DNA of 64,000 nt from Bacteroidota bacterium (GTDB lineage: Bacteria; Bacteroidota; Bacteroidia; Bacteroidales; FEN-979): NCBI GenBank assembly GCA_026391735.1, contig JAPLDL010000016.1:865-64864 (forward strand). The letters are read 5' to 3'. Below, piece by piece: positions 12,289 through 57,809 of this stretch. The notes beneath the pieces were generated by a model. The model ran no database searches. It was not told where the DNA came from and was given only the letters and a program-made list of their open reading frames with translations. Position 1 is the first letter of the stretch. Every line of letters starts with the position of its first letter. The position numbers were made by a program, and so were the translations under genes.

Positions 12289-12289
12289 T

Positions 12290-45206: not shown

Positions 45207-45221
45207 AATTTAAAATCCGGG

Positions 45222-45229
45222 CAAAGGTA
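45222..45229 (-). promoter_or_regulatory. -7 promoter box (TACCTTTG on minus strand) for the helicase gene
   Basis: The reverse complement of caaaggta lies 16 nt upstream of the start at 45206. Confidence 0.45.
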
Positions 45230-45278
45230 AAAGAATAGGACTTTGACCCGGGGTTTGTGAAAAACTATTTAATACAAT

Positions 45279-45398
45279 TCACTTACCAATTCCCTGTCGA
45301 CATTTACCCCTGTTTTATTCACACTTACCAATAGTAACCCTAACACAGTTACTTAGATACTGGTTACGCTTACCTGAATTTTGTTTACACTTACCAAT
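45279..45398 (+). promoter_or_regulatory. array of six ~21-bp-phased direct repeats (ACAYTTACC-type 9-mers): putative activator binding sites
   Basis: Copies start at 45279 TCACTTACC, 45300 ACATTTACC, 45321 ACACTTACC, 45345 ACAGTTACT, 45366 ACGCTTACC and 45387 ACACTTACC. Spacings are 21, 21, 24, 21 and 21 nt. Confidence 0.7.
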
Positions 45399-45427
45399 TC
45401 TTGCTTTACTTAAGGTTTTGACTGCCA

Positions 45428-45435
45428 TATTTTTG
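45428..45435 (+). promoter_or_regulatory. -7 promoter box (TATTTTTG) for the first island transcription unit
   Basis: TAnnTTTG match 36 nt upstream of the ATG at 45471 and exactly 40 nt downstream of the C of the proximal repeat (45388). Confidence 0.55.
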
Positions 45436-45470
45436 CAAACAGTGTAAAATGTTCTTAAACCATTTTTACT

Positions 45471-45851
45471 ATGAAATCAAACATATATAAGTTAGGGTGT
45501 ACATTATTAATAATATCATTTATAGTGTTCAGCTGCAGGAAAGATATCAATGAAGTTACTCCTGACCAGGGCTCCGGGAAAGTTAAATCGATGAGCGACA
45601 TAAAAGCTTCCTCCGACTTTAATTGGAAGACAACTCAGAATGTGGAACTGGAGCTCAGCGTACCTGCAAAATCTTCCCTGGTAATTAAATCTTCTTCCGG
45701 AGTGATTTTTCAAAAAGCATTACTTACACCCGGTGAATCTTATAAAACGGCAATTACAATCCCTAACTATATGCAGGATCTTACATTCGTTGTAAACGGT
45801 GTGTCAACAGTCCTGAAAATTGAGAATAACAGGGTTGTCTATTCTTTTTAA
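45471..45851 (+). CDS. small lipoprotein homologous to the N-terminal domain of the LruC-domain proteins
   Basis: Lipobox (IVFSC). The mature part aligns by eye with the N-terminal ~110 aa of the 51408 and 53799 products (C-x-KD, M.D...S.FNW..TQ.V.L, ending YSF/YTF/YVF). Confidence 0.65.
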   Translation: MKSNIYKLGCTLLIISFIVFSCRKDINEVTPDQGSGKVKSMSDIKASSDFNWKTTQNVELELSVPAKSSLVIKSSSGVIFQKALLTPGESYKTAITIPNYMQDLTFVVNGVSTVLKIENNRVVYSF

Positions 45852-45862
45852 ACAGCATAATA

Positions 45863-47899
45863 ATGAAAACAATAAATATTCCCCTGATAAACAAGTTTGC
45901 AGCTCTGCTTTTTGCGTCAATGTTGCTGCCGTTGTTAAGCATTGCAGATCAAAAATCAATCTGTGATATCTATAAAAGCAATGGAGGAGGATATTCCACC
46001 ACGATAACATCGGTTGTCTGCAATCAATCGGATCATTCCCATACCATTACCCTTCGTGTTGAGCATAATGGATGTGACGGGGCCAGTTGCCCTGCAATTA
46101 CCAGGTTTTGCGTTCAGGCTGCAGCCGGTACTTATTCGAATGTGGTCGTTAGTATACTGTATGGCGGAGTGACATTTACAGGGATTAACAATGGCCCGGT
46201 TTTGCCTGGCGACCCATGGAATGGATTCAGGATTGAAGGAATTACCGGCATTGGCAACGGTCATGCAGGAGTTTTTACAGTTTCCTACAAACTAACCGGC
46301 GCATTGCAGGACCAGCAGGTCTCGGCCAGGGCCGGAGCTCTTCTTCAGCTGGCATCATTTACAGCAGCTGATTTCCAGAGTGTCATGAACTGTTACAGCA
46401 CCGATTGCTCAGGTGGCGGACTAACTGGTCCTACAGCTAATAATGACAATGCGACCACCCCTCAGAACACCCCAATAACTTTAAATGTCCTGGCAAATGA
46501 TGTTGCAGGATCAGGCGCTCTCGTTCCCTCAACAGTTAGTTTTATCCCCGGAACAGCACCAAACCCGGGAACAGTTGGAACATTTACCGTAAATGGGGTA
46601 ACCGGAGCCGTTACATTTACCCCGGTAGCTGCTTATACAGGACTGGCTTCAATCCAGTATACAGTTTGCGATATGAACAGTTTATGCAGCACAGCAACTA
46701 TTACTATAAATATCACTGCTTCTCTTATTCCCCCGACAGCAATAAACGACAATGCAACAACAACCCTGAATACACCGGTAACCATTACTATTCTTACGAA
46801 TGATATTGCCGGTTCAGGAGCTTTAGTCCCTTCTTCAGTTACATTCGTCCCCGGCACTTCTCCACCGGTTTCCAAAGGAGTGTTTACCAAAAATAATCTT
46901 GGGATTGTAACCTTCACACCGGCAACCGGATACACAGGCCTTGCGACCATTCAATACACGGTGTGTGATGTAAACTCACTTTGCAGTTCTGCAACAATAA
47001 CAGTGACCATAAACGGTGGAGGAAATGACTCAGATGGCGACGGTTGTCCCGACGATGTGGACGATTATCCGAATGATCCTACCCGATGCTTTGATAACTA
47101 TTTCCCGGCTGCCGGTAATGGAACATTGGCTTATGAAGATCTCTGGCCTTCCAAGGGGGACTATGATTTCAATGATGTTATTCTTGATTACCGGTTTAAA
47201 ACCGTGACCAATTCTTCAAATAAAGTTGTTGAAATTTTTGCAACCTTTGTCCTGAAAGCCTCAGGCGCCGAGTTTCATAACGGCTTCGGGTTCCAGTTGC
47301 CAACCATTAACGTGGATCCCTCAACAATGACCGTGACAGGCTCTCATTTATCTCATTCTGTTGTCAATATTAACGCGAATGGCCTGGAAAGCGGACAAAC
47401 CAAACCAACCATTATTGTATTTGACGACTTTTTTGACCTGATGCCGAACCCTTCATGCGGCATTGGTGTGAATACATCCCCTGGATGTCCCTATGTGGCA
47501 CCGGTCACTATCTCGTTACATATTACTTTCAGCAGTCCGCTGTATCTGATGACTCAAACAAACGTTGAAAACTTCAACCCCTTCATCTTTGTCGGGCTTG
47601 ACAGGGGGCACGAGGTCCATTTGCCCGACTACCTTCCGACGAACCTTGCAAACCCTGCTTTTTTTGGCACTTATGATGACCAAACAAGCATTTCGGGAAA
47701 TAAATATTATAAAACCGTAAACAACCTTCCATGGGCTATTAACCTGATTGAAAGTTTTGCTTATCCGAAGGAAATGGTCGATATCATTAACTCGTATAAC
47801 CACTTCGTTGACTGGGTAACAAGCGGAGGCCTTTTATACCAGGACTGGTATATGGATAAACCAGGGTACCGCAATGCAACGAATATATATGTTCATTAG
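45863..47899 (+). CDS. LruC (DUF4842) domain-containing secreted protein with two cadherin/Ig-like ~100-aa repeats
   Basis: Type I signal peptide. Two repeats of NDNATT..NTP(I/V)T..(L/I)..ND(V/I)AGSGALVPS...FTP..GYTGLA(S/T)IQYTVCD.NSLCS.ATIT, then a Ca-binding-like DSDGDGCPDDVDDYPNDP motif. The LruC signature follows: LAYEDLWPSKGDYDFNDV ... FNPFIFV ... HEVHLPDY ... YYKTVNNLPWAINL. Confidence 0.85.
   Translation: MKTINIPLINKFAALLFASMLLPLLSIADQKSICDIYKSNGGGYSTTITSVVCNQSDHSHTITLRVEHNGCDGASCPAITRFCVQAAAGTYSNVVVSILYGGVTFTGINNGPVLPGDPWNGFRIEGITGIGNGHAGVFTVSYKLTGALQDQQVSARAGALLQLASFTAADFQSVMNCYSTDCSGGGLTGPTANNDNATTPQNTPITLNVLANDVAGSGALVPSTVSFIPGTAPNPGTVGTFTVNGVTGAVTFTPVAAYTGLASIQYTVCDMNSLCSTATITINITASLIPPTAINDNATTTLNTPVTITILTNDIAGSGALVPSSVTFVPGTSPPVSKGVFTKNNLGIVTFTPATGYTGLATIQYTVCDVNSLCSSATITVTINGGGNDSDGDGCPDDVDDYPNDPTRCFDNYFPAAGNGTLAYEDLWPSKGDYDFNDVILDYRFKTVTNSSNKVVEIFATFVLKASGAEFHNGFGFQLPTINVDPSTMTVTGSHLSHSVVNINANGLESGQTKPTIIVFDDFFDLMPNPSCGIGVNTSPGCPYVAPVTISLHITFSSPLYLMTQTNVENFNPFIFVGLDRGHEVHLPDYLPTNLANPAFFGTYDDQTSISGNKYYKTVNNLPWAINLIESFAYPKEMVDIINSYNHFVDWVTSGGLLYQDWYMDKPGYRNATNIYVH
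46430..47017 (+). repeat. two tandem ~100-aa Ig/cadherin-like coding repeats
   Basis: Repeat 1 starts at PTANNDNATT (46430) and repeat 2 at PPTAINDNATT (46730). The two are similar along their whole length. Confidence 0.8.
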
Positions 47900-47960
47900 A
47901 ATTTATCAGATATTTCATATACGATAAAAAATTAACAACCAATCAAAAACAACAGGCAAA

Positions 47961-49439
47961 ATGAAAAAAATCGCATTCATGTTAACAGGGCTTGGCTTAA
48001 TACTTGCATTTGCAGGTTGCAACAAGTTCAGAAATACCGAACCAGCCAGCCAGCAGTCAGCACAAGGCGTCAGCTTTGCTATTGCTCCAGGCCAGACCGG
48101 TGGGTTGAAATCAACGGCCAGCACCGATTGCTTCACTCAGACCGCCAATTACGCAAAAATCACCATTGACAGCAAACACTATATCAGGGCGATATTTTAC
48201 GTGGGTGGAATTCCGTACACAAACACTCTGCAACTGGGAACCGGCTTGCATACTCTGCAGGAATTTACCATATGGAGTGATAACCAGACCCCAAATGATT
48301 CTACCGATGATGCAATGCTTTCGGCAGTGCCTCACACAGGTTCGAATTATTCACCTTATGTTTCTTCGCCTCTGGATATTACATTTACAGTTGAAGCCTT
48401 TAAAAAGACCCAGCTTCCTGTAGAGGCAGTTTGTTATCAGCCAAGCAACTATAGCGATTTTGGTTTTACATTCTTCCAGATAGAACAGGTCACTGTTCGC
48501 GAACAACCGTTTTTCGGAGACCTCTGTATTAAAAGTATAGCTGATTATTCTATTACAGGTTCACCTTATCTTGCACAATCCAATGGTATACAGCTTGACC
48601 TTCCCGCAATCTTCAAAATTGAAGTATACAGGAACAATGTGTTGATGAATGTATTCAACAATGAAGCCTGGAACGGTGAAGGCCAGCCTCTGAAGGTTTT
48701 ATATGCCGACAGGCAGAATGTTACTGACAATTTCGAATTCAAACTCTATGTGAAAGTCAGGAAAGGTCCCGGTTTTGACTATGTTTATTTCAAGAGTTGG
48801 ACTTTTAGCGATGCTCAGGTGATCCCACAGAACAGCGACGGTGTTTGCGACTTTTCGATCGGATACTGCAACCCCAATGCCGACTATGTTCTTCCTCCAT
48901 GGATCAACCTGCCCAGTACAGCGACTTATACCATCACAGGCGGTTATGCTCCGGGTTCACAGGGAGGATATGTTGACGCAAACCTCACAAATGTTCTTTC
49001 GGGATATGAAATTGTAAACGGGACTTTTGCTTCCTGGTGCTGCGACCACCAGACCACAATTAATACGGGAACGGCTTATAATATGAACGTTTATTCCTCT
49101 CTTTATCCTGCTCTGCTTCCTGCTTTTGCGCAGACTATTCCCTGGGATAAGATCAACTGGCTGTTGAACCACCTTGACTGGTACCCCGGTTATCATTGGT
49201 ATGATCTGCAGGGGGCTATCTGGTTGTTTGACAATCCTGCATGGGATGGTACAGCACATAGCGGGGTACCCAATCTTACCACGGTTATGACCCAGATGCA
49301 TGCAGATGCCAATACTTACGGAGCTAATTTCAAGGTTCCGACCGGCGGATGGGCTTCGGTAGTCTTTATTCCCGTAGGAACACCACCCAATGCACCAACA
49401 CCTACCGTTCAGACCATGTTTATTAAACTTGATCCCTGA
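47961..49439 (+). CDS. lipoprotein of unrecognised family, paralog 1, with candidate thioester-domain-like C-terminal region
   Basis: Lipobox LAFAGC, 492 aa. About 85-90% identical by eye to the 49699 product. C-terminal third contains WCCDH (C360/C361) and DLQGAIW (Q417). No TAnnTTTG box upstream, so it is probably co-transcribed with 45863..47899. Confidence 0.85.
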   Translation: MKKIAFMLTGLGLILAFAGCNKFRNTEPASQQSAQGVSFAIAPGQTGGLKSTASTDCFTQTANYAKITIDSKHYIRAIFYVGGIPYTNTLQLGTGLHTLQEFTIWSDNQTPNDSTDDAMLSAVPHTGSNYSPYVSSPLDITFTVEAFKKTQLPVEAVCYQPSNYSDFGFTFFQIEQVTVREQPFFGDLCIKSIADYSITGSPYLAQSNGIQLDLPAIFKIEVYRNNVLMNVFNNEAWNGEGQPLKVLYADRQNVTDNFEFKLYVKVRKGPGFDYVYFKSWTFSDAQVIPQNSDGVCDFSIGYCNPNADYVLPPWINLPSTATYTITGGYAPGSQGGYVDANLTNVLSGYEIVNGTFASWCCDHQTTINTGTAYNMNVYSSLYPALLPAFAQTIPWDKINWLLNHLDWYPGYHWYDLQGAIWLFDNPAWDGTAHSGVPNLTTVMTQMHADANTYGANFKVPTGGWASVVFIPVGTPPNAPTPTVQTMFIKLDP

Positions 49440-49475
49440 AAAATTTTATCAGAATAACTTGATTTTCTGATTAAT

Positions 49476-49510
49476 AGAGGCTATTCCGAAAGGATGGCCT
49501 CTTTTTTGTT
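49476..49510 (+). terminator. rho-independent terminator after paralog 1
   Basis: agaggctattcc-gaaa-ggatggcctct imperfect hairpin followed by tttttgtttt. Confidence 0.6.
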
Positions 49511-49514
49511 TTCC

Positions 49515-49568
49515 ACATTTATGGATTATTTAGCCACACTTACCAAGAAACAATCATCACTTACTTGT
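49515..49568 (+). promoter_or_regulatory. three 21-bp-phased repeats of the island motif
   Basis: 49515 ACATTTATG, 49536 ACACTTACC and 49557 TCACTTACT, spaced 21 and 21 nt. Confidence 0.65.
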
Positions 49569-49597
49569 TATCGCTTTCCCCGGTTATCCAGTCGGCT

Positions 49598-49605
49598 TAT
49601 ATTTG
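49598..49605 (+). promoter_or_regulatory. -7 promoter box (TATATTTG) for paralog 2
   Basis: TAnnTTTG match, 40 nt downstream of the proximal repeat C (49558). Confidence 0.55.
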
Positions 49606-49698
49606 CCTGATTGATTATAAATTAGAAACAGAGGCACTGAAATATTTTGAAATATTAACCAAAAGGAAAATTATTAATTAATCAAAAAATCAAGTAAA

Positions 49699-51177
49699 AT
49701 GAAAAAGCTAACATTAATTTTTACAGTTCTTGGTTTAATACTTGCCATTGCAAGTTGTAACAAGATCAAGAATGATGCCCCCACGGCCCAGCAGGCTTCT
49801 CAGGGCGTGAGTTTCTCTATTGCTCCCGGACAAACCGGAGGGCTTAAATCTTCAGCCAGTACCGACTGTTTCCAAACAACGGCAAACTACGCAAAGATCA
49901 CTATTGACGGCAAACATTACGTAAGAGGTATTTTTTACGTTGATGGCAAACCGTATACGAATACCCTTCAGTTGGGGACAGGCGTCCACACATTGCAGGA
50001 ATTTGCCATTTGGAGCGATCACCAGACTCCCAATGATTCAACCGATGATTTAATGCTTTCGGCTGTACCTCATACCGGATCAAATTTTGCACCCTATGTT
50101 GCATCACCATTGGATATTACTTTCAACGTGGATGCCTTTAAAAAGACCCAGGTTCCGGTTGAAGCTGTTTGCTATCAGCCAAGCAATTATACCGATTTCG
50201 GTTTTACATTTTTCCAGATCGAAGAAGTGACACTCCGCGAGCAGCCTTTCTTCGGTGACCTTTGTATTAAAAGCATTGCCGATTATTCAATCCAGGGCTC
50301 GCCTTATCTTGCACAGTCCAACGGGATTCAGCTTGATCTTCCTGCAATCTTTAAGATTGAAGTATACAGGAACAATGTTCTTATGAATGTATTCAACAAT
50401 GAAGCATGGAACGGTGAAGGACAACCATTAAAAGTATTGTATGCCGACCGTAAGGGAATTACCGACAATTTCGAACTTAAACTCTATGTTAAAGTCAGGA
50501 AAGGCCCTGGATTTGATTATGTATACTTCAAGAGCTGGACTTTCAGCGACGCCCAGTTGATCCCTCAGAACGCCGATGGAGTTTGTGACTTCTCAATTGG
50601 ATATTGTAACCCCAATGCCGACTATGTTATGCCCCCGTGGATCAATTTACCTTCTACTTGCACATACACTATTACAGGTGGTTATGCCCCAGGTTCACAG
50701 GGTGGGTATGTGGATGCAAATCTCACCAGCGTATCAACCGGGTATGAAATTGCCAACGGGTTGTTTGCTTCATGGTGTTGTGACCATCAGACCACGATCA
50801 ATGTTGGCCAGCCATATAATATGAATGTATATTCATCCTTGTATCCCGACCAGCTTCCTGCATTTGCACAAACCAGGCCATGGGATAAGTACAACTGGCT
50901 TCTGAACCATCTTGACTGGTATCCCGGATATCATTGGTACGATCTCCAGGGAGCATTATGGCTGATGGAATCTCCTGCATGGAACGGTGTAAGTGAAGGG
51001 GGAGTTCCCAATGTTAATGCCATGATGACACAAATGAAAAATGATGCCATTGCATACGGCAGCGGGTATAAAGTTCCTACCGGCGGATGGGCAGCAGTTG
51101 TCTTCATTCCTGTTGGAACCCCAGGTAATGCAGCAAACCCGACCATCCAGACAATGTTCATTAAACTTGACCCTTGA
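49699..51177 (+). CDS. lipoprotein of unrecognised family, paralog 2, with candidate thioester-domain-like C-terminal region
   Basis: Lipobox LAIASC, 492 aa, colinear with paralog 1. WCCDH and DLQGALW are conserved at identical positions. Confidence 0.85.
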   Translation: MKKLTLIFTVLGLILAIASCNKIKNDAPTAQQASQGVSFSIAPGQTGGLKSSASTDCFQTTANYAKITIDGKHYVRGIFYVDGKPYTNTLQLGTGVHTLQEFAIWSDHQTPNDSTDDLMLSAVPHTGSNFAPYVASPLDITFNVDAFKKTQVPVEAVCYQPSNYTDFGFTFFQIEEVTLREQPFFGDLCIKSIADYSIQGSPYLAQSNGIQLDLPAIFKIEVYRNNVLMNVFNNEAWNGEGQPLKVLYADRKGITDNFELKLYVKVRKGPGFDYVYFKSWTFSDAQLIPQNADGVCDFSIGYCNPNADYVMPPWINLPSTCTYTITGGYAPGSQGGYVDANLTSVSTGYEIANGLFASWCCDHQTTINVGQPYNMNVYSSLYPDQLPAFAQTRPWDKYNWLLNHLDWYPGYHWYDLQGALWLMESPAWNGVSEGGVPNVNAMMTQMKNDAIAYGSGYKVPTGGWAAVVFIPVGTPGNAANPTIQTMFIKLDP

Positions 51178-51210
51178 TAACAATTTGAGTTCCGGATCAT
51201 TATAAATAGA

Positions 51211-51248
51211 AACAAGACACCGGTGTAAATGCCGGTGTCTTGTTTTAT
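51211..51248 (+). terminator. rho-independent terminator after paralog 2
   Basis: aacaagacaccgg-tgtaaatg-ccggtgtcttgtt perfect stem followed by a T-run. Confidence 0.8.
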
Positions 51249-51262
51249 CTTTACACCAGGGT

Positions 51263-51316
51263 ACATTTTATCCCCAAAAATGGACATTTACAAAATTAAC
51301 CAACACGCTTACTTAT
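51263..51316 (+). promoter_or_regulatory. three 21-bp-phased repeats of the island motif
   Basis: 51263 ACATTTTAT, 51284 ACATTTACA and 51305 ACGCTTACT, spaced 21 and 21 nt. Confidence 0.6.
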
Positions 51317-51345
51317 TATCAATTGACATGGCAGGTGCCTGTAAT

Positions 51346-51353
51346 TAATTTTG
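51346..51353 (+). promoter_or_regulatory. -7 promoter box (TAATTTTG) for the second LruC-domain gene
   Basis: TAnnTTTG match, 40 nt downstream of the proximal repeat (51306). Confidence 0.55.
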
Positions 51354-51407
51354 TGAAGTTAAACTGAAATTTAAGATTAAACTGCGAATACAAAAAAACC
51401 AAAAGCC

Positions 51408-53552
51408 ATGAAAACAAAAGTTTTATTATTATTTGTTTTGGCATCGTCCGTAATATTTATATCAGGATGTCATAAGGACTATTCGACTACGCCGAAAGCC
51501 AAAACAATGGATGATCTCCAGATCTCCCAATCCTTTAACTGGGAAATGACCCAGGAAGTCACATTGAATATCGGGATGGACATTCCCGCTGTGACATTCC
51601 AGTATAATAAAGTAAATGTATACCTAGCTGATCCGACAAAAGGCGGGGAACTGGTTTACCAGGGATGGACAGGAAATTCCAATCCGATGCTTGCGAAGGT
51701 CAGGATCCCGACAGGTGTTTCACAACTTTGGCTTCAGTTGATTCCATACAGCGGTGTTGGTCAGATTGCCAGCGTTCCTGTGAATGCCTCAATTTCTTAT
51801 ACGTTTGCAGGTGCAACCAAAATGAAAAGTGCTAATGTGCTCGGACCAGATTGTTCTGCAGCCACTGCACCCTACACTCTCATCGGAAGCGCAAATTTTA
51901 CAATTGATGATGGCCATACTTATTATATCATTGCCTCATATACCGGAGACATCACAGTTAAAGACGGCACCTTGCAAATCTGCGGAACTTATACAACCGG
52001 GACTATCGATCTTAAACCAAACAATGGAAAGACTTCCACACTTAAGGTAAGTTCCACAGGTACCATTGGAACAGTTTCTGCACCTGTTACGATTAAGGAA
52101 AGCAAAGACGGGTTGTTCCAGAATTGGGGTTCCTGCCATATTGCCGGTGTTTTTACACCCAATGACGAGGTGGAGAATTACAACCTCATGACTGTTTATG
52201 GCCAGATGAATATGAATGGAAGCTCAGGCAACTTCATCAATGGTGGCGGAGCCTATATGCATATCGAAGATAAATGGAACGTGATCAACCAGGCAACAAA
52301 CCTGGGTACTATTGAAGTTGAAGGAGACATGGAATGCAACCATTCGATTTTCCTGAACAGCTGTGCACTGATAGTTCATGGGAATTTCCATCTCAATAAC
52401 TGTGAATTTACAAACCAGACCGGTTACCTGAAATGTTTTGAAGAAGCTTATATGCAGGGCGGAACCGGATTTATGAAATTATACAACGGTTCAATGATCT
52501 CCACGAAGGATCTCAGGGTCAATGCTGATGTGACAGGTTATGGAACCCGTAATGAAATAAAGGTGACCGATATGTTGCGTTTCGATGGACCCAAAGTTAT
52601 CACAGGCCCTATTGAAACAGCTCAGACCAATGGAGTAATGACTTCAGGCGACATGACAAACTTTACAGGTGGTGCAACCTTTGTAAGTTTTGCCAACATA
52701 CTCAATACCATTCCCACGAGCGAATGTAATCCCGAGGGTGTGAATCCTCCGCCGGCCCCTGTCGGAAACGTATTCACAGGTACTGCTGTATATGAAGATC
52801 TCTGGCCTGAGAAAGGTGACTATGATCTGAACGACCTCGTGATGTATTATAAGTTCACATTAACCACAAATGTCCAGAATAAAGTAACGGACATTCAGAT
52901 AAAGCTTTATGTAAAAGCTGCAGGCGCTTCATTCCAGAACGGATTTGGAATCCAGTTTGATAACCTGGTTCCGGGCGATATCGCCTCGGTTACAGGCTAT
53001 AATCTGAAGTACAATTACATCACTCTTAGCGCAAACGGAACGGAATCGGGCCAGGCTAAAGCCGTTATCATTCCTTTCGACAATACCGATAACGTGATCC
53101 ACAGAGTAACCCCTGTCTTCTTCAATACCGTGATGGGAGCTCCTGTTGGAACAGCCGATACCGTTACCTTAAGTATCCATCTTACAACTCCTATGCTGAC
53201 AACGGCTCTTGGTACACCACCTTACAACCCATTCCTTATCAGAAATATGGAAAGGGTTGCTGAGATCCACCTCCCGAATTACGTGCCTACAACACTGGCA
53301 CAAAACTGTCCTTATTTTGGCACTGGTGATGATAATACTCAACCCGGAATCGGAAGATATTATAAAACAACCAACAATCTGCCCTGGGCACTGAATATCC
53401 CGGTCAATTTTGATTACCCCTGGGAAAAGGTAAGTGTTCTTAGCGCATACAATTATTTTGCAACCTGGGCAGAATCGGGCGGTACGCTTTACACCGACTG
53501 GTATAAAAATCTGGCAGGTTACAGGAATTCGGCCAATATCTGGCATCCGTAA
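51408..53552 (+). CDS. LruC (DUF4842) domain-containing lipoprotein with beta-helix-like middle region
   Basis: Lipobox FISGC and an N-terminal domain shared with 45471 and 53799. The middle ~300 aa are repetitive and G/N/T-rich (beta-helix-like). C-terminal LruC signature: AVYEDLWPEKGDYDLNDLV ... YNPFLI ... AEIHLPNY ... YYKTTNNLPWALNIP. Confidence 0.85.
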   Translation: MKTKVLLLFVLASSVIFISGCHKDYSTTPKAKTMDDLQISQSFNWEMTQEVTLNIGMDIPAVTFQYNKVNVYLADPTKGGELVYQGWTGNSNPMLAKVRIPTGVSQLWLQLIPYSGVGQIASVPVNASISYTFAGATKMKSANVLGPDCSAATAPYTLIGSANFTIDDGHTYYIIASYTGDITVKDGTLQICGTYTTGTIDLKPNNGKTSTLKVSSTGTIGTVSAPVTIKESKDGLFQNWGSCHIAGVFTPNDEVENYNLMTVYGQMNMNGSSGNFINGGGAYMHIEDKWNVINQATNLGTIEVEGDMECNHSIFLNSCALIVHGNFHLNNCEFTNQTGYLKCFEEAYMQGGTGFMKLYNGSMISTKDLRVNADVTGYGTRNEIKVTDMLRFDGPKVITGPIETAQTNGVMTSGDMTNFTGGATFVSFANILNTIPTSECNPEGVNPPPAPVGNVFTGTAVYEDLWPEKGDYDLNDLVMYYKFTLTTNVQNKVTDIQIKLYVKAAGASFQNGFGIQFDNLVPGDIASVTGYNLKYNYITLSANGTESGQAKAVIIPFDNTDNVIHRVTPVFFNTVMGAPVGTADTVTLSIHLTTPMLTTALGTPPYNPFLIRNMERVAEIHLPNYVPTTLAQNCPYFGTGDDNTQPGIGRYYKTTNNLPWALNIPVNFDYPWEKVSVLSAYNYFATWAESGGTLYTDWYKNLAGYRNSANIWHP

Positions 53553-53585
53553 TCCTAAACAATCTTAATTTCAGCTTTTGGTTAA

Positions 53586-53617
53586 GACGGCTCTCTTCGG
53601 AGGGCCGTCTTTTTTTT
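53586..53617 (+). terminator. rho-independent terminator
   Basis: gacggctctc-ttcg-gagggccgtc followed by T8. Confidence 0.85.
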
Positions 53618-53639
53618 ATAGCTAATTTCCTGTGTTTAG

Positions 53640-53693
53640 ACACATACTAAATAATACGTGACAGATACATGGGTAAGTAGTACACATACGTAA
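53640..53693 (+). promoter_or_regulatory. three 21-bp-phased repeats (ACASATAC variant of the island motif)
   Basis: 53640 ACACATACT, 53661 ACAGATACA and 53682 ACACATACG, spaced 21 and 21 nt. Confidence 0.6.
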
Positions 53694-53722
53694 AGTAGCT
53701 TTTTGTTTGGTAATACAGGCCC

Positions 53723-53730
53723 TAATTTTG
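53723..53730 (+). promoter_or_regulatory. -7 promoter box (TAATTTTG) for the third LruC-domain gene
   Basis: TAnnTTTG match, 40 nt downstream of the proximal repeat (53683). TTTG elements lie at 53702-53709. Confidence 0.55.
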
Positions 53731-53798
53731 CAATTAATTATTATTCAGTAGATAATTATAAGCTAATTAGTCAAAATAACAAAATTAAAATACCATAC

Positions 53799-56783
53799 AT
53801 GAAACGTATTCCAGTTATCTTCATAGTCATTCTGAGTCTTTTTTTCTCACTCAGCAGCTGTAAAAAAGATCTTACTTCCAGGGACACTTCATCATCCAAT
53901 CCGACGAAGTTTACTGATCTTAAAACCGATCCGTCATTCACTTTTGAGAACTTCACAACAATAAACGCAAATATCAGTGTGAATACCTCTCAGGGCACAA
54001 CCATGAACATTATCCAGGTATACCAGGATGATCCCGGTTATGGCAAGCTCATTGCAACAGGCGTTTCTTACGGAAGTCAGCCATATAGTAATACTCTCCG
54101 CATTCCAAAGGCAGTTAAAACCCTTTACATCGCCTATGCCTCTTCTGACGGCAAACACGAGTCGGCTACTATAAGTATTAACGGGACTGACGTCGTTTAT
54201 GTGTTCGGAAAGACCAAATCAGGAGAGAATGCAGAAAACAGCTGCGGAACCGGAACTGCGATCACAACAAACCAGAGCAGCGTAACGGTGGGCTCAGGTC
54301 AAACTTATTATGTACCTTTCGGTTCAACCGTTACTATTTCTAATTTAACTGTCAGTACCGGAGGAACATTCAATAATTGCGGTACTGTAACAGTGAATGG
54401 ATTAAATGTAAGCTCTTCCAACGGAACAATCAATAATAACGGGACATTCACAATTACAGAGGATGTTGATTTTAAAGGCATATTAGTCAATAATGCCACT
54501 CTTAATGTCACCGGGAATCATGAATATAAAACTAATTCGGGTGGAAGTGTGATCAACAATTGCACCATGTATGTTACCGGGGATGTGTTTACCACTGGCA
54601 GCGGTAGTTTTACTAATAACGGATATCTTAAAATTACAGGAAACGAAGGAAGTATTAAAACAACAGGTGGTGGGATTCTTACTTTAGGCCCCCAAAGTTT
54701 GCTTGATACTCCGTATTTTGACCTTGAAGGTTCATGCAACGGGCCAGGGACCGCTTCTTATGCAGGCATCAAGACCCATGACGGAAAAACCACAGGGGGC
54801 GCAGGCATCTCAGGTTATGTGGACTTCTGTGCAAGCGGAACGATCCACCCTGATGGGGCAACTTATGGCCCACATGTGACATTCTGCACTCATTCAGTAA
54901 GCATTCCCAGTTGCTCAAACCCAATTGCCCCTGTTATTACCAGTGCACTTACCGCCGCTGGAACCGCAGGCCAGGCAATCACACCTTACGTGATTACAGC
55001 CACTGGAACCGAGCCCATTACATACACTGCAACAAATTTGCCTTCGGGTTTGACATACAATAGCAGTACTCATACTATCTCGGGAACACCGGCTGCTGCA
55101 GGTTCATTTAATATTACTCTGAAGGCGGATAACGCTGTAGGTACTGATACGAAGACCCTTGTGTTAACAGTTGGCGCTCCCGGCAATCCTCCTGCTATAA
55201 CCAGTCCAATGACTGCAGCAGGAACAGCCGCTCAGCCTTTCAGCTATACGATTACTGCTACGGGAACCAATACCCAGGCTTGTCCGCTGACTTTCAGTGC
55301 AAACAACCTGCCAGCAGGACTTACTTTGCAGGGTGGAAACATCATTGGAGGATCCCCTTCAGCCGCAGGAACATATGATATCACTATGACTGCGACCAAC
55401 TGTAACGGTACTGACACCAAACACCTGATCCTGACTGTCGGAGCTGCAGGAGTTGCCCCTGTCATTACGAGCCCGTTAACCGCCAGTGGCACTGCAGGAC
55501 AGGTATTTACACCTTATACGATGACATCAACAGGTACTACCCCTGTGACCTTAAATGCCACTAATTTGCCTGCCGGACTTTCATATGATAATTCAACTCA
55601 CCAGATAACCGGGAATCCAACAACACCTGGGACTACCAGTGTTATATTAACTGCATCGAATTTTTACGGAACTGATGTAAAAACACTTGTTATCACTATT
55701 GCCCAGGGAGCAGGAACACCTCCTGCCATCCAGCCCCCGCTCACTGCCACAGGTACAGTGGGATCCCCGTTCACACCGTATTTAGTGTCAGCCACCGGAA
55801 CATCTCCGATAACATTTTCTGCAACACAGCTACCCGATGGATTGTCATTTGATCCTATCTCGCACACAATAACAGGCACACCTACCTCTGCCGGTACATT
55901 TAATGTCCCTCTTACTGCGACGAACAATGTCGGAGTCGATAATAAAACCCTTGTGATAACAATAACCCAGGGCGGAGGTGGTTCGTTTTACTCGTACTAT
56001 CCGAACTCAGTGGATTACGGCACCTTCGTATTTGAAGACCTCTGGCCCTATTACGGAGATTATGACTGTAACGACCTTGTTGTGAACTTCCAATATAAAA
56101 TAACTTCCAATGAACAGAACCAGATCACTGATATCCAGGCAACCTTTATCTTTAAAGCTGCAGGAGCTACATTCAATAACGGTTTCGGGATTGTTTTAAA
56201 TACAAATCCGTCAAACATAGCTAGTGTTACCGGTTGTACTCAATATGGAAGCGCGGTCAGTTATGATCCAAAAGGATTTGAAGCTGGTCATTCCAATATG
56301 ACGGTTATTGTCCCGGTTGATGCCGTTAACACCATGTTTGGCAGGGGATTGGTCAATACAATAATTGGAAATGGATATATTCAGCCAGTCACAAAGGTTA
56401 TTAATATACATTTTGCAACTCCTCAGGCTAGTGTGGGCTCACTGCCATGGAATCCATTTATTTTCCAGGACCAGGTTCGCAGCCATGAGATCCACATGAA
56501 GAATAAAGCCAATACCGACTTTGCTGATATGAGTTTATTCAATACAGGCAATGATGGTTCCAATTCCGGACAGGGTGTTTATTATGCCTCACCAACCGGA
56601 CTGCCCTGGGCATTTGAGATCCCTGTTAATTTTGATTATCCGGTTGAAAAAACAGATATTCTCAACTGCTATAATCATTTTGCCGAATGGGCTACATCAC
56701 CGCAGGGACCTTCTAACCCTTATAATGACTGGTATATGGACAGCCCGGGATACAGGAATACAGCAAATCTCTGGCATCCGTAA
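53799..56783 (+). CDS. LruC (DUF4842) domain-containing lipoprotein with beta-helix-like region and four He_PIG-type Ig repeats
   Basis: ATG at 53799 gives MKRIPVIFIVILSLFFSLSSC (lipobox). The N-terminal domain and beta-helix-like region resemble 51408. Four ~88-aa repeats follow (P(A/P)(V/A)ITS.LTA.GTAGQ.F.PY...ATG..P(I/V)T..A.NLP.GL....T..I.G.P...G......L.A.N..G.D.K.L.(L/I)T(V/I)). C-terminal LruC signature: FVFEDLWPYYGDYDCNDLV ... WNPFIF ... HEIHMKN ... LPWAFEIP. Confidence 0.85.
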   Translation: MKRIPVIFIVILSLFFSLSSCKKDLTSRDTSSSNPTKFTDLKTDPSFTFENFTTINANISVNTSQGTTMNIIQVYQDDPGYGKLIATGVSYGSQPYSNTLRIPKAVKTLYIAYASSDGKHESATISINGTDVVYVFGKTKSGENAENSCGTGTAITTNQSSVTVGSGQTYYVPFGSTVTISNLTVSTGGTFNNCGTVTVNGLNVSSSNGTINNNGTFTITEDVDFKGILVNNATLNVTGNHEYKTNSGGSVINNCTMYVTGDVFTTGSGSFTNNGYLKITGNEGSIKTTGGGILTLGPQSLLDTPYFDLEGSCNGPGTASYAGIKTHDGKTTGGAGISGYVDFCASGTIHPDGATYGPHVTFCTHSVSIPSCSNPIAPVITSALTAAGTAGQAITPYVITATGTEPITYTATNLPSGLTYNSSTHTISGTPAAAGSFNITLKADNAVGTDTKTLVLTVGAPGNPPAITSPMTAAGTAAQPFSYTITATGTNTQACPLTFSANNLPAGLTLQGGNIIGGSPSAAGTYDITMTATNCNGTDTKHLILTVGAAGVAPVITSPLTASGTAGQVFTPYTMTSTGTTPVTLNATNLPAGLSYDNSTHQITGNPTTPGTTSVILTASNFYGTDVKTLVITIAQGAGTPPAIQPPLTATGTVGSPFTPYLVSATGTSPITFSATQLPDGLSFDPISHTITGTPTSAGTFNVPLTATNNVGVDNKTLVITITQGGGGSFYSYYPNSVDYGTFVFEDLWPYYGDYDCNDLVVNFQYKITSNEQNQITDIQATFIFKAAGATFNNGFGIVLNTNPSNIASVTGCTQYGSAVSYDPKGFEAGHSNMTVIVPVDAVNTMFGRGLVNTIIGNGYIQPVTKVINIHFATPQASVGSLPWNPFIFQDQVRSHEIHMKNKANTDFADMSLFNTGNDGSNSGQGVYYASPTGLPWAFEIPVNFDYPVEKTDILNCYNHFAEWATSPQGPSNPYNDWYMDSPGYRNTANLWHP
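54927..55970 (+). repeat. four tandem ~88-aa putative-Ig (He_PIG/dystroglycan-type) coding repeats
   Basis: Repeat starts read at 54927 (APVITS), 55188 (PPAITS), 55455 (APVITS) and 55719 (PPAIQP). Confidence 0.8.
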
Positions 56784-56817
56784 TCCTAAACAATTTTAAT
56801 TTCAGCTTTTGGTTAAA

Positions 56818-56847
56818 ACGGCTCTCCTCGGAGGGCCGTCTTTTTTT
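56818..56847 (+). terminator. rho-independent terminator (near-identical copy of 53586-53617)
   Basis: acggctctc-ctcg-gagggccgt followed by T7. Confidence 0.85.
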
Positions 56848-56904
56848 GCAGGATGGCAGTTTATCCGTAATTTTACATTGGTTTTAATTTCTTATCGGCA
56901 TTAC

Positions 56905-57645
56905 ATGAAAATCACATTTTTCCAGGTCCTTAATTATTCGCTGATCTTTTTTGCCATGATCCTTTTTATAAGGTATTTATGGGATATAATCTTTAACCCA
57001 GATTACGAGCCTGCAGCCTGGAAAGAAGCTAAGAAGGAAGGTAGGCTGACGGGTCTGCGGAAGGTTGAAAAACAATACAAGGATAAAGTCAGGTTTTTCA
57101 ATTTCTGGTTCCAGGTCGAACGGCTTAGAAAGGAACAGGTCGCCGGAGCTATGGCCGAACTGGGAGTATACCAGGGTGAAAGTGCCAGGATTTTACACTA
57201 TCTTGACCCTGCACGGAAGCTCTATCTTTTTGATACCTTCGAAGGGTTTAAAAACCAGGATCTTGCGATAGAAAAAGGAGTAGCGGCAACATACACCAGC
57301 AACAATTTTGCCGACACCAGTATTAATAAGGTACTCAGATTTATCGGCGGAAACGGGAACATATCGGTGCAACAAGGGTATTTTCCGGCCTCTGCCTTAA
57401 AACTGGTTCATGAGAAGTTTGCCCTGGTTAATATAGATGTTGACTTATACAACCCAACCAAAGCCGGTCTTGAATTTTTCTACCCGCGCCTTTGTCCGGG
57501 AGGAATCATCCTGGTACATGACTATAATTTTAAATGGGAGGGGGTGATCAGGGCTGTTGATGAGTTTTGCAAAACCATACCCGAATCCATGGTTATTATC
57601 CCTGACAGAGAAACTACCGTGATGATCATCCGCAGAAAATTCTGA
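56905..57645 (+). CDS. TylF/MycF-like class I SAM-dependent methyltransferase with N-terminal TM helix
   Basis: ATG at 56905; the track start at 56809 would read through the upstream terminator. Hydrophobic N-terminus (NYSLIFFAMILFIRYLW), then ELGVYQGESA, LFDTFEGF and VDVDLYNPTKAGLEFFYPRLCPGGIILVHDY, typical of the macrocin-O-methyltransferase family. Confidence 0.8.
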   Translation: MKITFFQVLNYSLIFFAMILFIRYLWDIIFNPDYEPAAWKEAKKEGRLTGLRKVEKQYKDKVRFFNFWFQVERLRKEQVAGAMAELGVYQGESARILHYLDPARKLYLFDTFEGFKNQDLAIEKGVAATYTSNNFADTSINKVLRFIGGNGNISVQQGYFPASALKLVHEKFALVNIDVDLYNPTKAGLEFFYPRLCPGGIILVHDYNFKWEGVIRAVDEFCKTIPESMVIIPDRETTVMIIRRKF

Positions 57646-57809
57646 TAGCTGGATAGCTGGATAGCTTGAAAGTTGGATAGCTTGATAACTGGATAGCTGG
57701 ATAACTGGATAGCTGGATAGCTTGATAACTGGATAGCTGGATAGCTTGATAACTGGATAGCTGGATAACTTGATATCTGATTATCCAGTTATCCCGCTAT
57801 CCAGTTATC
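57646..57809. repeat. ~16 tandem 8-nt units (CTGGATAG / CTGGATAA / CTTGATAA) followed by an inverted partial copy
   Basis: Direct reading from tagctggatagctggatag... to ...ctggataacttgatatctga, then ttatccagttatcccgctatccagttatc (57781-57809), which can pair with the preceding units. Confidence 0.95.

What the first reader, a model, noticed from the sequence alone, without database searches (positions are those of the whole stretch)
45207..57645. A ~12-kb island of surface lipoproteins (3 LruC-domain proteins, 2 thioester-like paralogs, a small lipoprotein, a TM-anchored methyltransferase) wedged between conserved housekeeping blocks
The segment between the uvrD-like helicase and the str ribosomal operon encodes only exported proteins plus one methyltransferase. 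The exported proteins carry five lipoboxes and one type I signal peptide.

Each transcription unit has its own promoter module and a strong terminator.

The LruC/DUF4842 domain has no established biochemical function. Here three copies are combined with different stalk modules and are co-regulated with the candidate thioester proteins. This suggests a multi-component adhesion or covalent-capture system.

No integrase, transposase, tRNA or direct-repeat boundary is visible, so it is not obviously mobile. Its right edge coincides with the octamer repeat array at 57646-57809.
Basis: partly seen in the sequence, partly recalled or inferred. Interest (0 to 1): 0.7.

Follow-up and report, generated by a model that had tools for sequence, protein, structure and literature searches.

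The report
Thioester-type adhesin lipoproteins beside LruC genes
A conserved, co-regulated cluster of surface-protein genes in an uncultured Bacteroidales bacterium carries two lipoproteins whose tip domain looks like the covalent "thioester" adhesion domain so far described only in Gram-positive bacteria.

Summary
Window 45471-57645 (+) encodes a small lipoprotein, three LruC/DUF4842 proteins, two 492-aa paralogous lipoproteins (83% identical) and a membrane-anchored TylF-like methyltransferase.

The guess that the paralogs are "thioester-like" is well supported. Their C-terminal 190 residues model confidently (pLDDT 91). The model's only credible PDB neighbours are Gram-positive thioester domains (TEDs). 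All three TED motifs are present, in the right order and secondary-structure context, and are kept in about 98% of 180 family members. The predicted bond is Cys360-Gln484. Neither Pfam nor NCBIfam detects the domain.

A profile of the domain finds 1,610 clusters, some in archaea. Five of 65 distant relatives give weak Pfam TED hits.

The region is not an inserted island. The helicase / methyltransferase / rpsL backbone is conserved and the space between helicase and methyltransferase is a variable slot. The methyltransferase belongs to the backbone.

An LruC gene lies immediately upstream of the first 492-family (stalk/TED) gene in 27 of 51 assessable loci. A conserved repeat with 21-bp spacing precedes three of the transcription units.

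Thioester chemistry, surface exposure and the target were not tested.

The parts
45280..45435 (+). Promoter region of the A-B-C unit. It holds four copies of the direct repeat CRCTTACY (45280, 45322, 45367, 45388; 21/42-bp spacing) and a Bacteroidota -7 box, TATTTTTG, at 45428.
   Evidence: repeat family D7. The same repeats lie upstream of the orthologous gene in L001-L003, L008 and L011.
45471..45851 (+). A: 126-aa lipoprotein. It is homologous to the N-terminal module of lipoprotein-type LruC proteins, that is, a split-off anchor module preceding B.
   Evidence: Lipobox VFSC. blastp E 6e-11 to the N-terminus of the L019 LruC protein and 2e-6 to E. It always precedes B-type LruC genes in related loci. 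No Pfam hit.
45863..47899 (+). B: 678-aa secreted LruC protein. It has a type I signal peptide, a Cys-rich N-domain (CDxYKxNGGGYSTT), two Big_9/cadherin-like domains, an Asp-rich calcium-type linker, and LruC/DUF4842 at residues 420-664.
47961..49439 (+). C: 492-aa lipoprotein. It consists of a lipobox, two beta-sandwich stalk domains (about 34-158 and 177-300) and a C-terminal thioester-like domain (residues 305-492 = 48873-49436). Key residues are Cys360 (49038-49040), Gln417/Trp421 (49209-49223) and Gln484 (49410-49412).
   Evidence: AF2 models; Foldseek; conservation; coordinates.
49476..49502 (+). Intrinsic terminator ending the A-B-C unit.
   Evidence: 11-bp stem followed by a T run.
49537..49605 (+). 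Promoter region of D. It holds two CRCTTACY repeats (49537, 49558; 21-bp spacing) and a -7 box, TATATTTG, at 49598.
   Evidence: The arrangement is conserved upstream of the second TED gene in L001-L003 and L006.
49699..51177 (+). D: 492-aa paralog of C (83% identical) with the same architecture. Key residues are Cys360 (50776-50778), Gln417 (50947-50949), Trp421 (50959-50961) and Gln484 (51148-51150).
51210..51245 (.). Palindromic terminator after D.
   Evidence: 14-bp stem.
51306..51353 (+). Promoter region of E. It holds one CRCTTACY copy at 51306, 40 nt upstream of the -7 box TAATTTTG at 51346.
51408..53552 (+). E: 714-aa lipoprotein. It has an A-like N-module, an unassigned middle region, and LruC/DUF4842 at residues 458-700.
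53584..53611 (+). Terminator after E. It lies within a 100-nt stretch that is 92% identical to the 3' end and terminator of F.
   Evidence: repeat family D4.
53799..56783 (+). F: 994-aa lipoprotein (true ATG start at 53799). It has an A-like N-module, four He_PIG/PKD Ig-like repeats, and a C-terminal LruC/DUF4842 domain.
56818..56839 (+). Terminator after F.
56905..57645 (+). G: 246-aa TylF-like SAM-dependent methyltransferase with an N-terminal transmembrane helix. It is a conserved backbone gene beside rpsL and is not part of the adhesin module.

Best explanation
The slot between the PcrA/UvrD helicase gene and the methyltransferase-rpsL backbone is a lineage-conserved but fast-changing locus for cell-surface adhesins.

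Its recurrent core is an LruC-domain protein followed within a few tens of bases by one or two TED lipoproteins. Each TED lipoprotein is built as:
- an N-terminal lipid anchor;
- two Ig-like stalk domains;
- a distal class-I-type thioester domain.

This is the mirror image of Gram-positive TIE adhesins, which carry the thioester domain at the N-terminus and an LPXTG anchor at the C-terminus.

The proposed mechanism is as follows. Cys360 (strand C) and Gln484 (last strand) form an internal thioester. A nucleophilic amine on a target attacks it, leaving the lipoprotein, and so the cell, covalently attached.

The LruC proteins carry interchangeable binding modules (cadherin-like, He_PIG Ig repeats, an unassigned region) on a constant C-terminal LruC domain. 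They probably provide non-covalent recognition. The units A-B-C, D and E are switched on together through a shared upstream repeat.

Shown here: gene content, homology, predicted fold, motif conservation, synteny, gene adjacency and the shared cis-element.

Inferred: that the thioester forms, that the proteins face outward, what the target is, and that LruC and TED proteins cooperate.
For: TED assignment, structure:
- The domain-only AF2 model has pLDDT 91.3 and pTM 0.86.
- Its top five Foldseek PDB hits are all thioester domains: 5a0d and 5a0n, probability 0.92-0.99, E 2e-3 to 7e-3, TM 0.39-0.51. The B. anthracis TIE protein also appears. Every non-TED hit has probability of 0.08 or less; the only others above that are the weak B. 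anthracis TIE rows (0.13, 0.07).
- The element order is A, B, C (Cys), D, helices, helix with QxxPhiW, helix, P, Q (Gln). This matches the published six-strand barrel plus three-helix bundle.

TED assignment, motifs:
- The published motifs are [YFL]C-Phi-zeta in a strand, TQxxPhiW in the central helix, and Phi-Q-zeta-Phi-Phi in the last strand.
- Here they are [WFYN]-C360-[AC]-D at a strand end, Q417-G-A-I-W421 in helix 413-421, and V-Q484-T-M-F in the last strand.
- Conservation across the family is Cys 178/181, Q417 179/180, W421 180/180 and Q484 178/180.

TED assignment, sequence bridge:
- The C-terminal profile finds 1,610 representative proteins.
- Of 65 distant ones, 5 hit Pfam TED PF08341 (best E 4.5e-5), and the set carries DUF11, DUF7507, SdrD_B and SpaA stalk domains.

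Modularity: the same stalk carries other heads (Fib_succ_major / IG_AIR9) in paralogs.

Locus:
- Synteny holds in L001-L011, L016, L046 and L055.
- An LruC gene lies directly upstream in 27/51 loci, with gaps of 7-221 nt in 26 of them (one apparent overlap from an over-extended ORF start).
- Backbone variants are L066 and L068.

Co-regulation: 7 of 12 CRCTTACY sites in the 64-kb window lie in three promoter regions with 21-bp spacing. The arrangement is conserved in related loci.

Anchoring: the lipobox Cys is present in all 200 family members aligned at that position (7 of 207 truncated there). Lys at +2 is present in 186/200, resembling the Bacteroidota lipoprotein export signal K-(D/E)2.
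Against: - No sequence method links the window proteins directly to TEDs. Pfam gives no TED hit even at E<=10 in 43 members. NCBIfam gives nothing. PDB profile searches are negative. hhalign against the pLS20 class II TED is negative.
- Three paralogs lack the Cys yet keep the rest of the domain.
- The strict export signal is present in only 31/200 members and is weak in C and D themselves.
- 24/51 loci lack an adjacent LruC gene, and L068 has LruC genes without TED genes. The partnership is therefore facultative.
Confidence: 0.58

Rival explanations
1. The genes are independent surface lipoproteins that merely accumulate in a permissive slot. The C-terminal head of the 492-aa proteins has a TED-like fold but binds its ligand non-covalently. 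On this view the conserved Cys, Gln and Trp serve folding or ligand contact rather than a thioester.
For: - Coupling with LruC is facultative: 24/51 loci have no adjacent LruC gene, and L068 has LruC genes only.
- The same stalk carries lectin-like heads in paralogs.
- Three paralogs lack the Cys.
- Sequence-level detection of TED fails for the window proteins.
Against: - About 98% of members conserve exactly the two bond-forming residues, in the two strands where TEDs have them, along with the helix motif that contacts the bond.
- Gaps of 7-66 nt between LruC and TED genes recur across divergent lineages.
- The units share a cis-element.
Confidence: 0.22
2. The thioester domain targets the co-encoded LruC protein rather than an external ligand. 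The lipid-anchored TED protein would covalently capture a lysine of the LruC domain or its passenger. This would tether proteins such as B, which lacks a lipid anchor, to the cell surface, and the two would form one composite adhesin.
For: - B has a type I signal peptide and no lipobox, and is followed 61 nt later by C in the same unit.
- LruC to TED gene order recurs in 27 loci.
- DUF4842 is always C-terminal, with variable passengers, in many phyla. This is what one would expect of an anchoring or docking domain.
Against: - In the more distant loci the LruC protein upstream of the TED genes is itself a lipoprotein.
- B-type proteins are always preceded by the small lipoprotein A, which is an alternative anchor.
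- TED genes occur alone in many genomes.
- There is no interaction evidence of any kind.
Confidence: 0.12
3. The C-terminal domain is an enzyme that uses the conserved Cys as a nucleophile, for example a peptidase, amidase or transglutaminase-like activity, rather than a self-crosslinked adhesion domain.
For: An invariant Cys, plus a conserved Asn-His pair in the first helix (N403/H404, invariant in the C-terminal alignment), could in principle form a catalytic set.
Against: - No papain-like, transglutaminase-like or other hydrolase fold appears among the Foldseek hits. Every non-TED hit has probability 0.08 or less.
- His363, next to the Cys motif, is not conserved.
- Both glutamines and the Trp typical of TEDs are conserved instead.
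- The domain sits at the tip of Ig-like stalks alongside known adhesin stalk domains.
Confidence: 0.05
4. The 12-kb segment is a horizontally acquired genomic island.
For: - Gene content between helicase and methyltransferase differs among relatives.
- A repeat array lies at the right edge.
Against: - The gene order is syntenic in at least 12 MAGs spanning 53-91% protein identity.
- There is no integrase, tRNA or boundary direct repeat.
- GC content is 0.39-0.49, against about 0.43-0.48 in the flanks.
- Variation is explained by local duplication and recombination. C and D are 83% identical, and the 3' ends of E and F are 92% identical.
Confidence: 0.03

Closest known systems
Class I thioester domains (TEDs) of Gram-positive TIE adhesins (SfbI, CpTIE 5A0D/5A0G, PnTIE 5A0N; Pfam PF08341)
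   Same: - The predicted fold is a six-strand barrel plus a three-helix bundle.
- Cys lies in strand C within an aromatic-C-Phi-D motif.
- A QxxPhiW motif lies on the central helix.
[quoted passage not shown]
- Cys-Gln spacing is 124 residues.
- The domain sits at the distal tip of Ig-like stalk domains on a cell-anchored protein.
   Different: - The window proteins show no detectable sequence match to PF08341 or to any solved TED.
- The host is a diderm Bacteroidales bacterium.
- The anchor is an N-terminal lipid, not a C-terminal LPXTG, so the domain is C-terminal rather than N-terminal.
- The stalk domains resemble those of Bacteroides surface lipoproteins (4ecn, 5cag), not CnaB isopeptide domains.
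- The Thr of TQxxPhiW is not conserved.
- The thioester itself is unverified.
LruC / DUF4842 proteins (Leptospira LruC, LIC13086; Bacteroides ovatus lipoprotein PDB 3OQQ)
   Same: - B, E and F match PF16130 and TIGR04456 far above the thresholds.
- The domain is C-terminal.
- The proteins are lipoproteins or secreted.
- 3OQQ shares the layout of N-module plus LruC domain.
   Different: - The three copies here carry different passenger modules.
- One copy (B) is split from its lipoprotein N-module (A).
- They are operonically linked to TED lipoproteins. No such link is mentioned in the papers I read.
- The biochemical role of the domain is still unknown.
Bacterial alpha-2-macroglobulin-type thioester lipoproteins (CxEQ motif)
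   Same: These are lipoproteins of diderm bacteria with an internal Cys-Gln thioester that reacts with amines.
   Different: - The fold is entirely different (large MG-domain proteins of about 1,500-1,900 aa).
- There, Cys and Gln are three residues apart in a CxEQ motif. Here they are 124 residues apart in a small barrel/helix domain.
- Foldseek returned no macroglobulin hits.
Variable surface-lipoprotein and adhesin loci of Bacteroidota
   Same: - Clustered lipoprotein genes with Ig-like stalks.
- Local duplication and module swapping.
- Bacteroidota-type -7 promoter boxes.
   Different: - There are no SusC/D-like transporters and no fimbrial usher or Mfa/Fim assembly genes.
- No invertible promoter was detected.
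- The content is LruC plus TED proteins.

Membership tests
Thioester domain (TED, PF08341; class I) | Fold: six-stranded beta-barrel plus three-helix bundle | tested here: met
   The AF2 domain model (pLDDT 91.3) has six strands and three main helices in the canonical order. The top five Foldseek PDB hits are all TEDs with probability 0.92-0.99.
Thioester domain (TED, PF08341; class I) | [quoted passage not shown] | tested here: met
   [WFYN]-C360-[AC]-D lies at the end of strand 354-360. Cys is present in 178/181 members. The first position is more often W or N than in the published motif.
Thioester domain (TED, PF08341; class I) | [quoted passage not shown] | tested here: met
   V/I-Q484-T-M-F lies in the last strand, 484-489. 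Gln is present in 178/180 members.
Thioester domain (TED, PF08341; class I) | TQxxPhiW motif on the central helix (common but not essential) | tested here: met
   Q417-G-A-I-W421 lies in helix 413-421. Q is present in 179/180 and W in 180/180. The preceding Thr is not conserved.
Thioester domain (TED, PF08341; class I) | Significant sequence match to the family model | tested here: not met
   There is no PF08341 hit in any of 43 family members at E<=10, no NCBIfam hit, and no PDB sequence hit. The only link is indirect: 5 of 65 distant relatives found by the domain profile hit PF08341. The two located hits score 20.1 and 20.5 bits, below the 22-bit cut-off; the best of the five has E 4.5e-5 but its score and identity were not retrieved.
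Thioester domain (TED, PF08341; class I) | Physical Cys-Gln thioester (-17 Da; reacts with methylamine) | not testable with these tools
   This needs mass spectrometry of the recombinant domain.
TIE proteins (Gram-positive thioester / isopeptide / ester-domain adhesins) | N-terminal TED, isopeptide or ester stalk domains, and a C-terminal LPXTG sortase anchor | tested here: not met
   The architecture here is a lipobox at the N-terminus, two non-CnaB beta-sandwiches and a C-terminal TED, with no LPXTG. It works like a TIE protein but is not a member of that class.
LruC / DUF4842 | Match to PF16130 and TIGR04456 above the curated cut-offs | tested here: met
   B, E and F score 162-209 bits against a cut-off of 22, and 215-265 bits against a cut-off of 36. 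A profile of the domain hits PDB 3OQQ at E 6e-19.
TylF/MycF-type O-methyltransferase | Match to PF05711 above the cut-off | tested here: met
   G scores 66.6 bits against a cut-off of 23. There are 3,326 homologs. In L066 and L068 the gene lies near rpsL regardless of what the slot contains.
Mobile genomic island | Integrase or transposase, tRNA or direct-repeat borders, deviant composition, patchy presence among close relatives | tested here: not met
   None of these features is present. The locus is syntenic in at least 12 MAGs.
Surface-exposed Bacteroidota lipoprotein | Lipobox plus export signal K-(D/E)2 or Q-A-(D/E)2 after the Cys | tested here: inconclusive
   The lipobox Cys is invariant. 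Lys at +2 is present in 186/200 members, but the strict signal is present in only 31/200. A, E and F have C-x-K-D, while C and D have C-N-K-F/I.
Alpha-2-macroglobulin-type thioester protein | CxEQ motif within a large MG-domain protein | tested here: not met
   There is no CxEQ motif, the proteins are only 492 aa, and there are no macroglobulin fold hits.

The most novel reading that the evidence does not exclude
The 492-aa lipoproteins would be functional members of a large, unannotated branch of the thioester-domain superfamily. That branch extends covalent, thioester-based adhesion beyond Gram-positive bacteria. It would include diderm bacteria, with lipoprotein, PEP-CTERM, T9SS and pilin-like anchors, and archaea such as Methanohalophilus and Altiarchaeales. 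In Bacteroidales these proteins would work as a co-regulated pair with LruC/DUF4842 proteins, giving the first functional handle on that domain of unknown function.
Probability: 0.45. Interest if true: 0.8.

Novelty: new variant of a known kind. Interest (0 to 1): 0.64.

Why it matters
The papers I could search describe thioester domains as found exclusively in Gram-positive bacteria.

If the Bacteroidales lipoproteins form the bond, covalent adhesion chemistry is much more widespread than described. The domain profile finds 1,610 clusters at 50% identity, and spot checks of the best hits turned up archaeal proteins and proteins with diderm-type sorting signals. Current annotation pipelines miss this chemistry entirely.

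It would also give a concrete, testable context for DUF4842/LruC, a domain present in Leptospira virulence-associated proteins, Vibrio, Bacteroides and marine ice-binding proteins, whose function is unknown.

The domain is small and self-contained, so it could also be useful as a protein-ligation tool.

Tried and rejected
- Sequence and profile searches of the 492 family against PDB chains gave nothing useful. The broader-family profile gave only weak hits to HCMV UL130 (E about 0.006), which I treat as chance.
- I fetched a genuine class II TED, pLS20 TIE, at L072:6477-7400. hhalign of it against the family profiles was negative. The homolog search meant to build a TED profile returned one protein. 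This was a dead end and does not count as evidence against the assignment.
- The NCBIfam scan of distant relatives gave no TQXA-domain hit.
- I looked for a LytTR-type two-component system in the window that could bind the 21-bp-spaced repeats. None is present.
- The sigma-70-type promoter scan was uninformative, with 30 sites found against 31 expected. Bacteroidota -7 boxes were searched for instead.
- I considered and rejected a mobile island, an alpha-2-macroglobulin-type thioester, and a role for the methyltransferase in the system.

Full report
**1. What is in the sequence**

The region holds seven + strand ORFs between a PcrA/UvrD-type helicase (42858-45206, -) and rpsL (58169).

| Gene | Coordinates | Product |
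|---|---|---|
| A | 45471-45851 | 126-aa lipoprotein |
| B | 45863-47899 | 678 aa; type I signal peptide, Cys-rich N-domain, two Big_9/cadherin-like domains, LruC/DUF4842 |
| C | 47961-49439 | 492-aa lipoprotein |
| D | 49699-51177 | 492-aa lipoprotein, 83% identical to C |
| E | 51408-53552 | 714-aa lipoprotein ending in LruC |
| F | true start 53799, to 56783 | 994-aa lipoprotein with four He_PIG repeats and LruC |
| G | true start 56905, to 57645 | 246-aa TylF-like methyltransferase with an N-terminal transmembrane helix |

- C and D have no Pfam, NCBIfam or PDB sequence hit.
- The starts of F and G were corrected using independent gene calls and a 100% identical database protein.
- Strong terminators follow C, D, E and F. 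None separates A, B and C.
- There is no tRNA, integrase, boundary repeat or compositional anomaly.
- The octamer array at the right edge is real.

**2. The 492-aa proteins**

Homologs.
- The word-indexed search returned 125 homologs.
- All named ones are "hypothetical protein" from Bacteroidota or Bacteroidales MAGs, and none has a Pfam domain over the shared region.

Full-length model. The AF2 model (pLDDT 83) has three domains:
- two beta-sandwiches, at about 34-158 and 177-300;
- an alpha/beta domain at 305-492.

In the full-length Foldseek search the best hits were Bacteroides surface proteins (4ecn, E 2e-7; 5cag). I take these to reflect the two beta-sandwich domains, because they disappear when the C-terminal domain is searched alone. 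Two thioester domains already appeared in that search with probability 0.82-0.94.

Domain-only model. I remodelled the C-terminal domain on its own, giving pLDDT 91.3 and pTM 0.86.
- Its five best PDB matches are all thioester domains: C. perfringens 5a0d chains and S. pneumoniae 5a0n, with probability 0.92-0.99, E 2e-3 to 7e-3 and TM 0.39-0.51.
- The B. anthracis TIE protein also appears.
- Every non-TED hit has probability of 0.08 or less.

Motifs. Two papers define TEDs as a six-strand barrel plus three-helix bundle with three motifs:
- [YFL]C-Phi-zeta on strand C, carrying the bond-forming Cys;
- TQxxPhiW on the central helix;
- Phi-Q-zeta-Phi-Phi on the last strand, carrying the bond-forming Gln.

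The model has exactly this order of elements, and the family has all three motifs in the right places:
- [WFYN]-C360-[AC]-D at the end of the third strand;
- Q417-G-A-I-W421 in the central helix;
- V-Q484-T-M-F in the last strand.

Conservation. Among 207 non-redundant family sequences, 181 carry the domain. Of those aligned at each position, Cys360 is present in 178/181, Gln417 in 179/180, Trp421 in 180/180 and Gln484 in 178/180.
- The predicted bond is Cys360-Gln484.
- I had first paired the Cys with Gln417. The literature shows that residue belongs to the non-essential helix motif.

Limits of the assignment.
- Direct sequence methods do not see the relationship.
- There is an indirect bridge. 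A profile of the C-terminal domain alone, searched against 1.84 billion representative proteins, finds 1,610 proteins at E<=1e-3 and 604 at E<=1e-10.
- Of 65 distant relatives that are not of the 492 type, five hit Pfam TED (best E 4.5e-5). The two located hits are just under the gathering score, and the hit checked against the profile match (P0348) overlaps it. The set also carries DUF11, DUF7507, SdrD_B and SpaA stalk domains.
- Chance would give about 1e-5 TED hits in such a scan.
- These relatives carry PEP-CTERM, T9SS and pilin-like sorting signals. They include archaeal proteins, Methanohalophilus mahii WP_013036530.1 and an Altiarchaeales MAG protein.

Paralogs that keep the stalk (residues 1 to about 312) but replace the head with Fib_succ_major/IG_AIR9 modules show the protein is a modular "stalk plus binding head" design.

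**3. The locus**

Loci encoding family members were fetched from 65 genome contigs and screened with the window's proteins.

The full arrangement recurs in L001-L003, L005-L007, L010, L011, L016, L046 and L055, and in part in L008 and L009. TED-protein identity in these loci is 53-91%. The arrangement is:
- murA, DUF4290 gene and helicase on the - strand;
- then the small lipoprotein, a B-type LruC gene, one or two TED genes and zero or one extra LruC gene;
- then the methyltransferase, followed by rpsL, rpsG and fusA.

The window has the richest version, with three LruC genes. The segment is therefore inherited, not inserted.

The methyltransferase.
- Its family has 3,326 homologs.
- In L068 it sits between two LruC genes and rpsL, with no TED gene.
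- In L066 the slot between helicase and methyltransferase holds CvfB, LiaF, a histidine kinase and a LytTR regulator instead.
- The methyltransferase is therefore backbone, and the helicase-methyltransferase interval is a variable slot.

Evidence of local recombination:
- C and D are 83% identical.
- The last 100 nt of E and F, including their terminators, are 92% identical.

**4. The link between LruC and TED genes**

- In more distant Bacteroidales and Lentimicrobiaceae contigs, a triad of an LruC gene (about 600 aa) followed by two TED genes recurs in unrelated neighbourhoods without the methyltransferase.
- Overall, an LruC gene ends immediately upstream of the first stalk/TED-family gene, on the same strand, in 27 of 51 assessable loci (gaps of 7-221 nt in 26 of them). 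The other 24 have no LruC gene nearby.
- That rate of adjacency is far more than chance would give for a rare family, but the link is facultative.
- The LruC proteins in the distant loci are themselves lipoproteins. Their N-terminal module is homologous to protein A.
- In the window's lineage this module is split off as A, ahead of the non-lipidated B.
- The LruC domain has one solved relative, PDB 3OQQ from Bacteroides ovatus, and no established function.

**5. Regulation**

- Bacteroidota -7 boxes (TAnnTTTG) precede A, D, E and F.
- The motif CRCTTACY occurs 12 times in the 64-kb window. Seven of these lie, all on the + strand, in the roughly 750 nt upstream of A (four copies), D (two) and E (one).
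- The copies are 21 or 42 bp apart, and the proximal copy lies about 40 nt upstream of the -7 box.
- The same arrangement lies upstream of the corresponding genes in L001-L003, L005-L008, L010 and L011.
- This supports co-regulation by one unidentified DNA-binding protein. No candidate regulator is encoded in the window.

**6. Mechanism and confidence**

I consider the most likely reading to be a co-regulated adhesin locus with two kinds of component.
- The lipid-anchored C and D proteins present a class-I-like thioester domain at the end of a two-domain stalk. They bind a target covalently through Gln484 after nucleophilic attack on the Cys360-Gln484 thioester.
- The LruC proteins contribute variable, non-covalent binding modules.

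Homology, predicted fold, motif conservation, synteny, adjacency and the shared cis-element are shown. The bond itself, surface exposure, the target and cooperation with LruC are inferred. Evidence for surface exposure is weak: Lys at +2 in 186/200 members, but the strict export signal in only 31/200.

Rivals are a non-covalent TED-like head in unrelated neighbouring genes, covalent tethering of the LruC partner, a Cys-dependent enzyme, and a mobile island. They are set out separately with their tests.

**7. Novelty**

- Every paper I could search describes TEDs only in Gram-positive bacteria; one states "exclusively". This is a statement about the searchable library, not proof that nobody has reported otherwise.
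- The domain is a known kind in a new host, with a new anchoring topology, a new sequence branch and a new gene partnership.
- I therefore rate it as a new variant of a known kind.

Noticed in passing
window 57644-57809: An octamer array, (GATAGCTG)x17, starts within the last bases of the methyltransferase gene, just before its stop codon. It is followed by 3.6 inverted copies (TTATCCAG), so the end of the array can form a long hairpin. An independent assembly contig (L069) ends 58 nt after the methyltransferase stop, suggesting the array breaks assemblies.
   Followed up: partly
window 45280-45395, 49537-49565, 51306-51313; also L001-L003, L005-L008, L010, L011: The direct repeat CRCTTACY, with 21/42-bp spacing, sits about 40 nt upstream of Bacteroidota -7 boxes of the A-B-C, D and E units. 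It accounts for 7 of the 12 sites in the whole window and is conserved in related loci. It is a probable operator for an unidentified regulator. The 21-bp spacing is reminiscent of LytTR-type sites (from memory, untested).
   Followed up: partly
window 53517-53616 and 56748-56847: The last codons of E and F, with their downstream terminators, are 92% identical over 100 nt, although the genes are otherwise only about 44% identical in the LruC domain. This looks like a recombination or cassette-exchange junction.
   Followed up: no
P0320, P0348, P0355, P0251, P0305 (hits): The TED-like domain occurs in archaeal proteins (Methanohalophilus mahii WP_013036530.1; an Altiarchaeales MAG). It also occurs in bacterial proteins with PEP-CTERM, T9SS C-terminal and type IV pilin-like signals, often with DUF11, DUF7507 or SdrD_B stalks. 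Giant proteins of more than 3,000 aa carry up to five copies.
   Followed up: partly
L037, L038, L041, L042 (about 10001-13600); L066 6081-7913: Stand-alone TED-lipoprotein genes in these genomes are followed by a membrane protein of about 405 aa and a response-regulator-like protein of about 204 aa. In L066 the helicase-methyltransferase slot holds a histidine kinase and a LytTR regulator. These are possible regulators of the family. None is encoded in the window.
   Followed up: partly
L010 7884-9797, L046, L055, L007 7892-9793, L022/L023/L027; L043 7689-9827: Paralogs keep the lipoprotein stalk (residues 1 to about 312) but carry IG_AIR9 plus Fib_succ_major-like heads instead of the thioester-like domain. 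In L043, L045 and L049, a 712-aa Fib_succ_major lipoprotein replaces LruC upstream of the TED genes.
   Followed up: partly
window 45471-45851 and 45863-47899: The small lipoprotein A is a detached copy of the N-terminal module that is fused to LruC proteins elsewhere. It always precedes the non-lipidated B-type LruC gene. This suggests a split protein whose two halves may reassociate.
   Followed up: partly
window 53703-53798 and 56809-56904: The longest ORFs of F (TTG at 53703) and G (TTG at 56809) overrun the true starts. The extension of G even covers the terminator of F (56818-56839). The real starts are ATG 53799 and ATG 56905.
   Followed up: yes
P0032, P0034, L028 8325-9893: Three family members, at least two of them one copy of a tandem or same-contig pair, have lost the conserved Cys (replaced by Gly, Ser or Asn) while keeping both glutamines and the Trp. 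They may be non-reactive decoy or structural variants.
   Followed up: no
alignment A5 against PDB: The broad-family profile gives weak hits (E about 0.006) to human cytomegalovirus UL130 over about 60 residues spanning the helix motif to the last strand. I treated these as chance.
   Followed up: no
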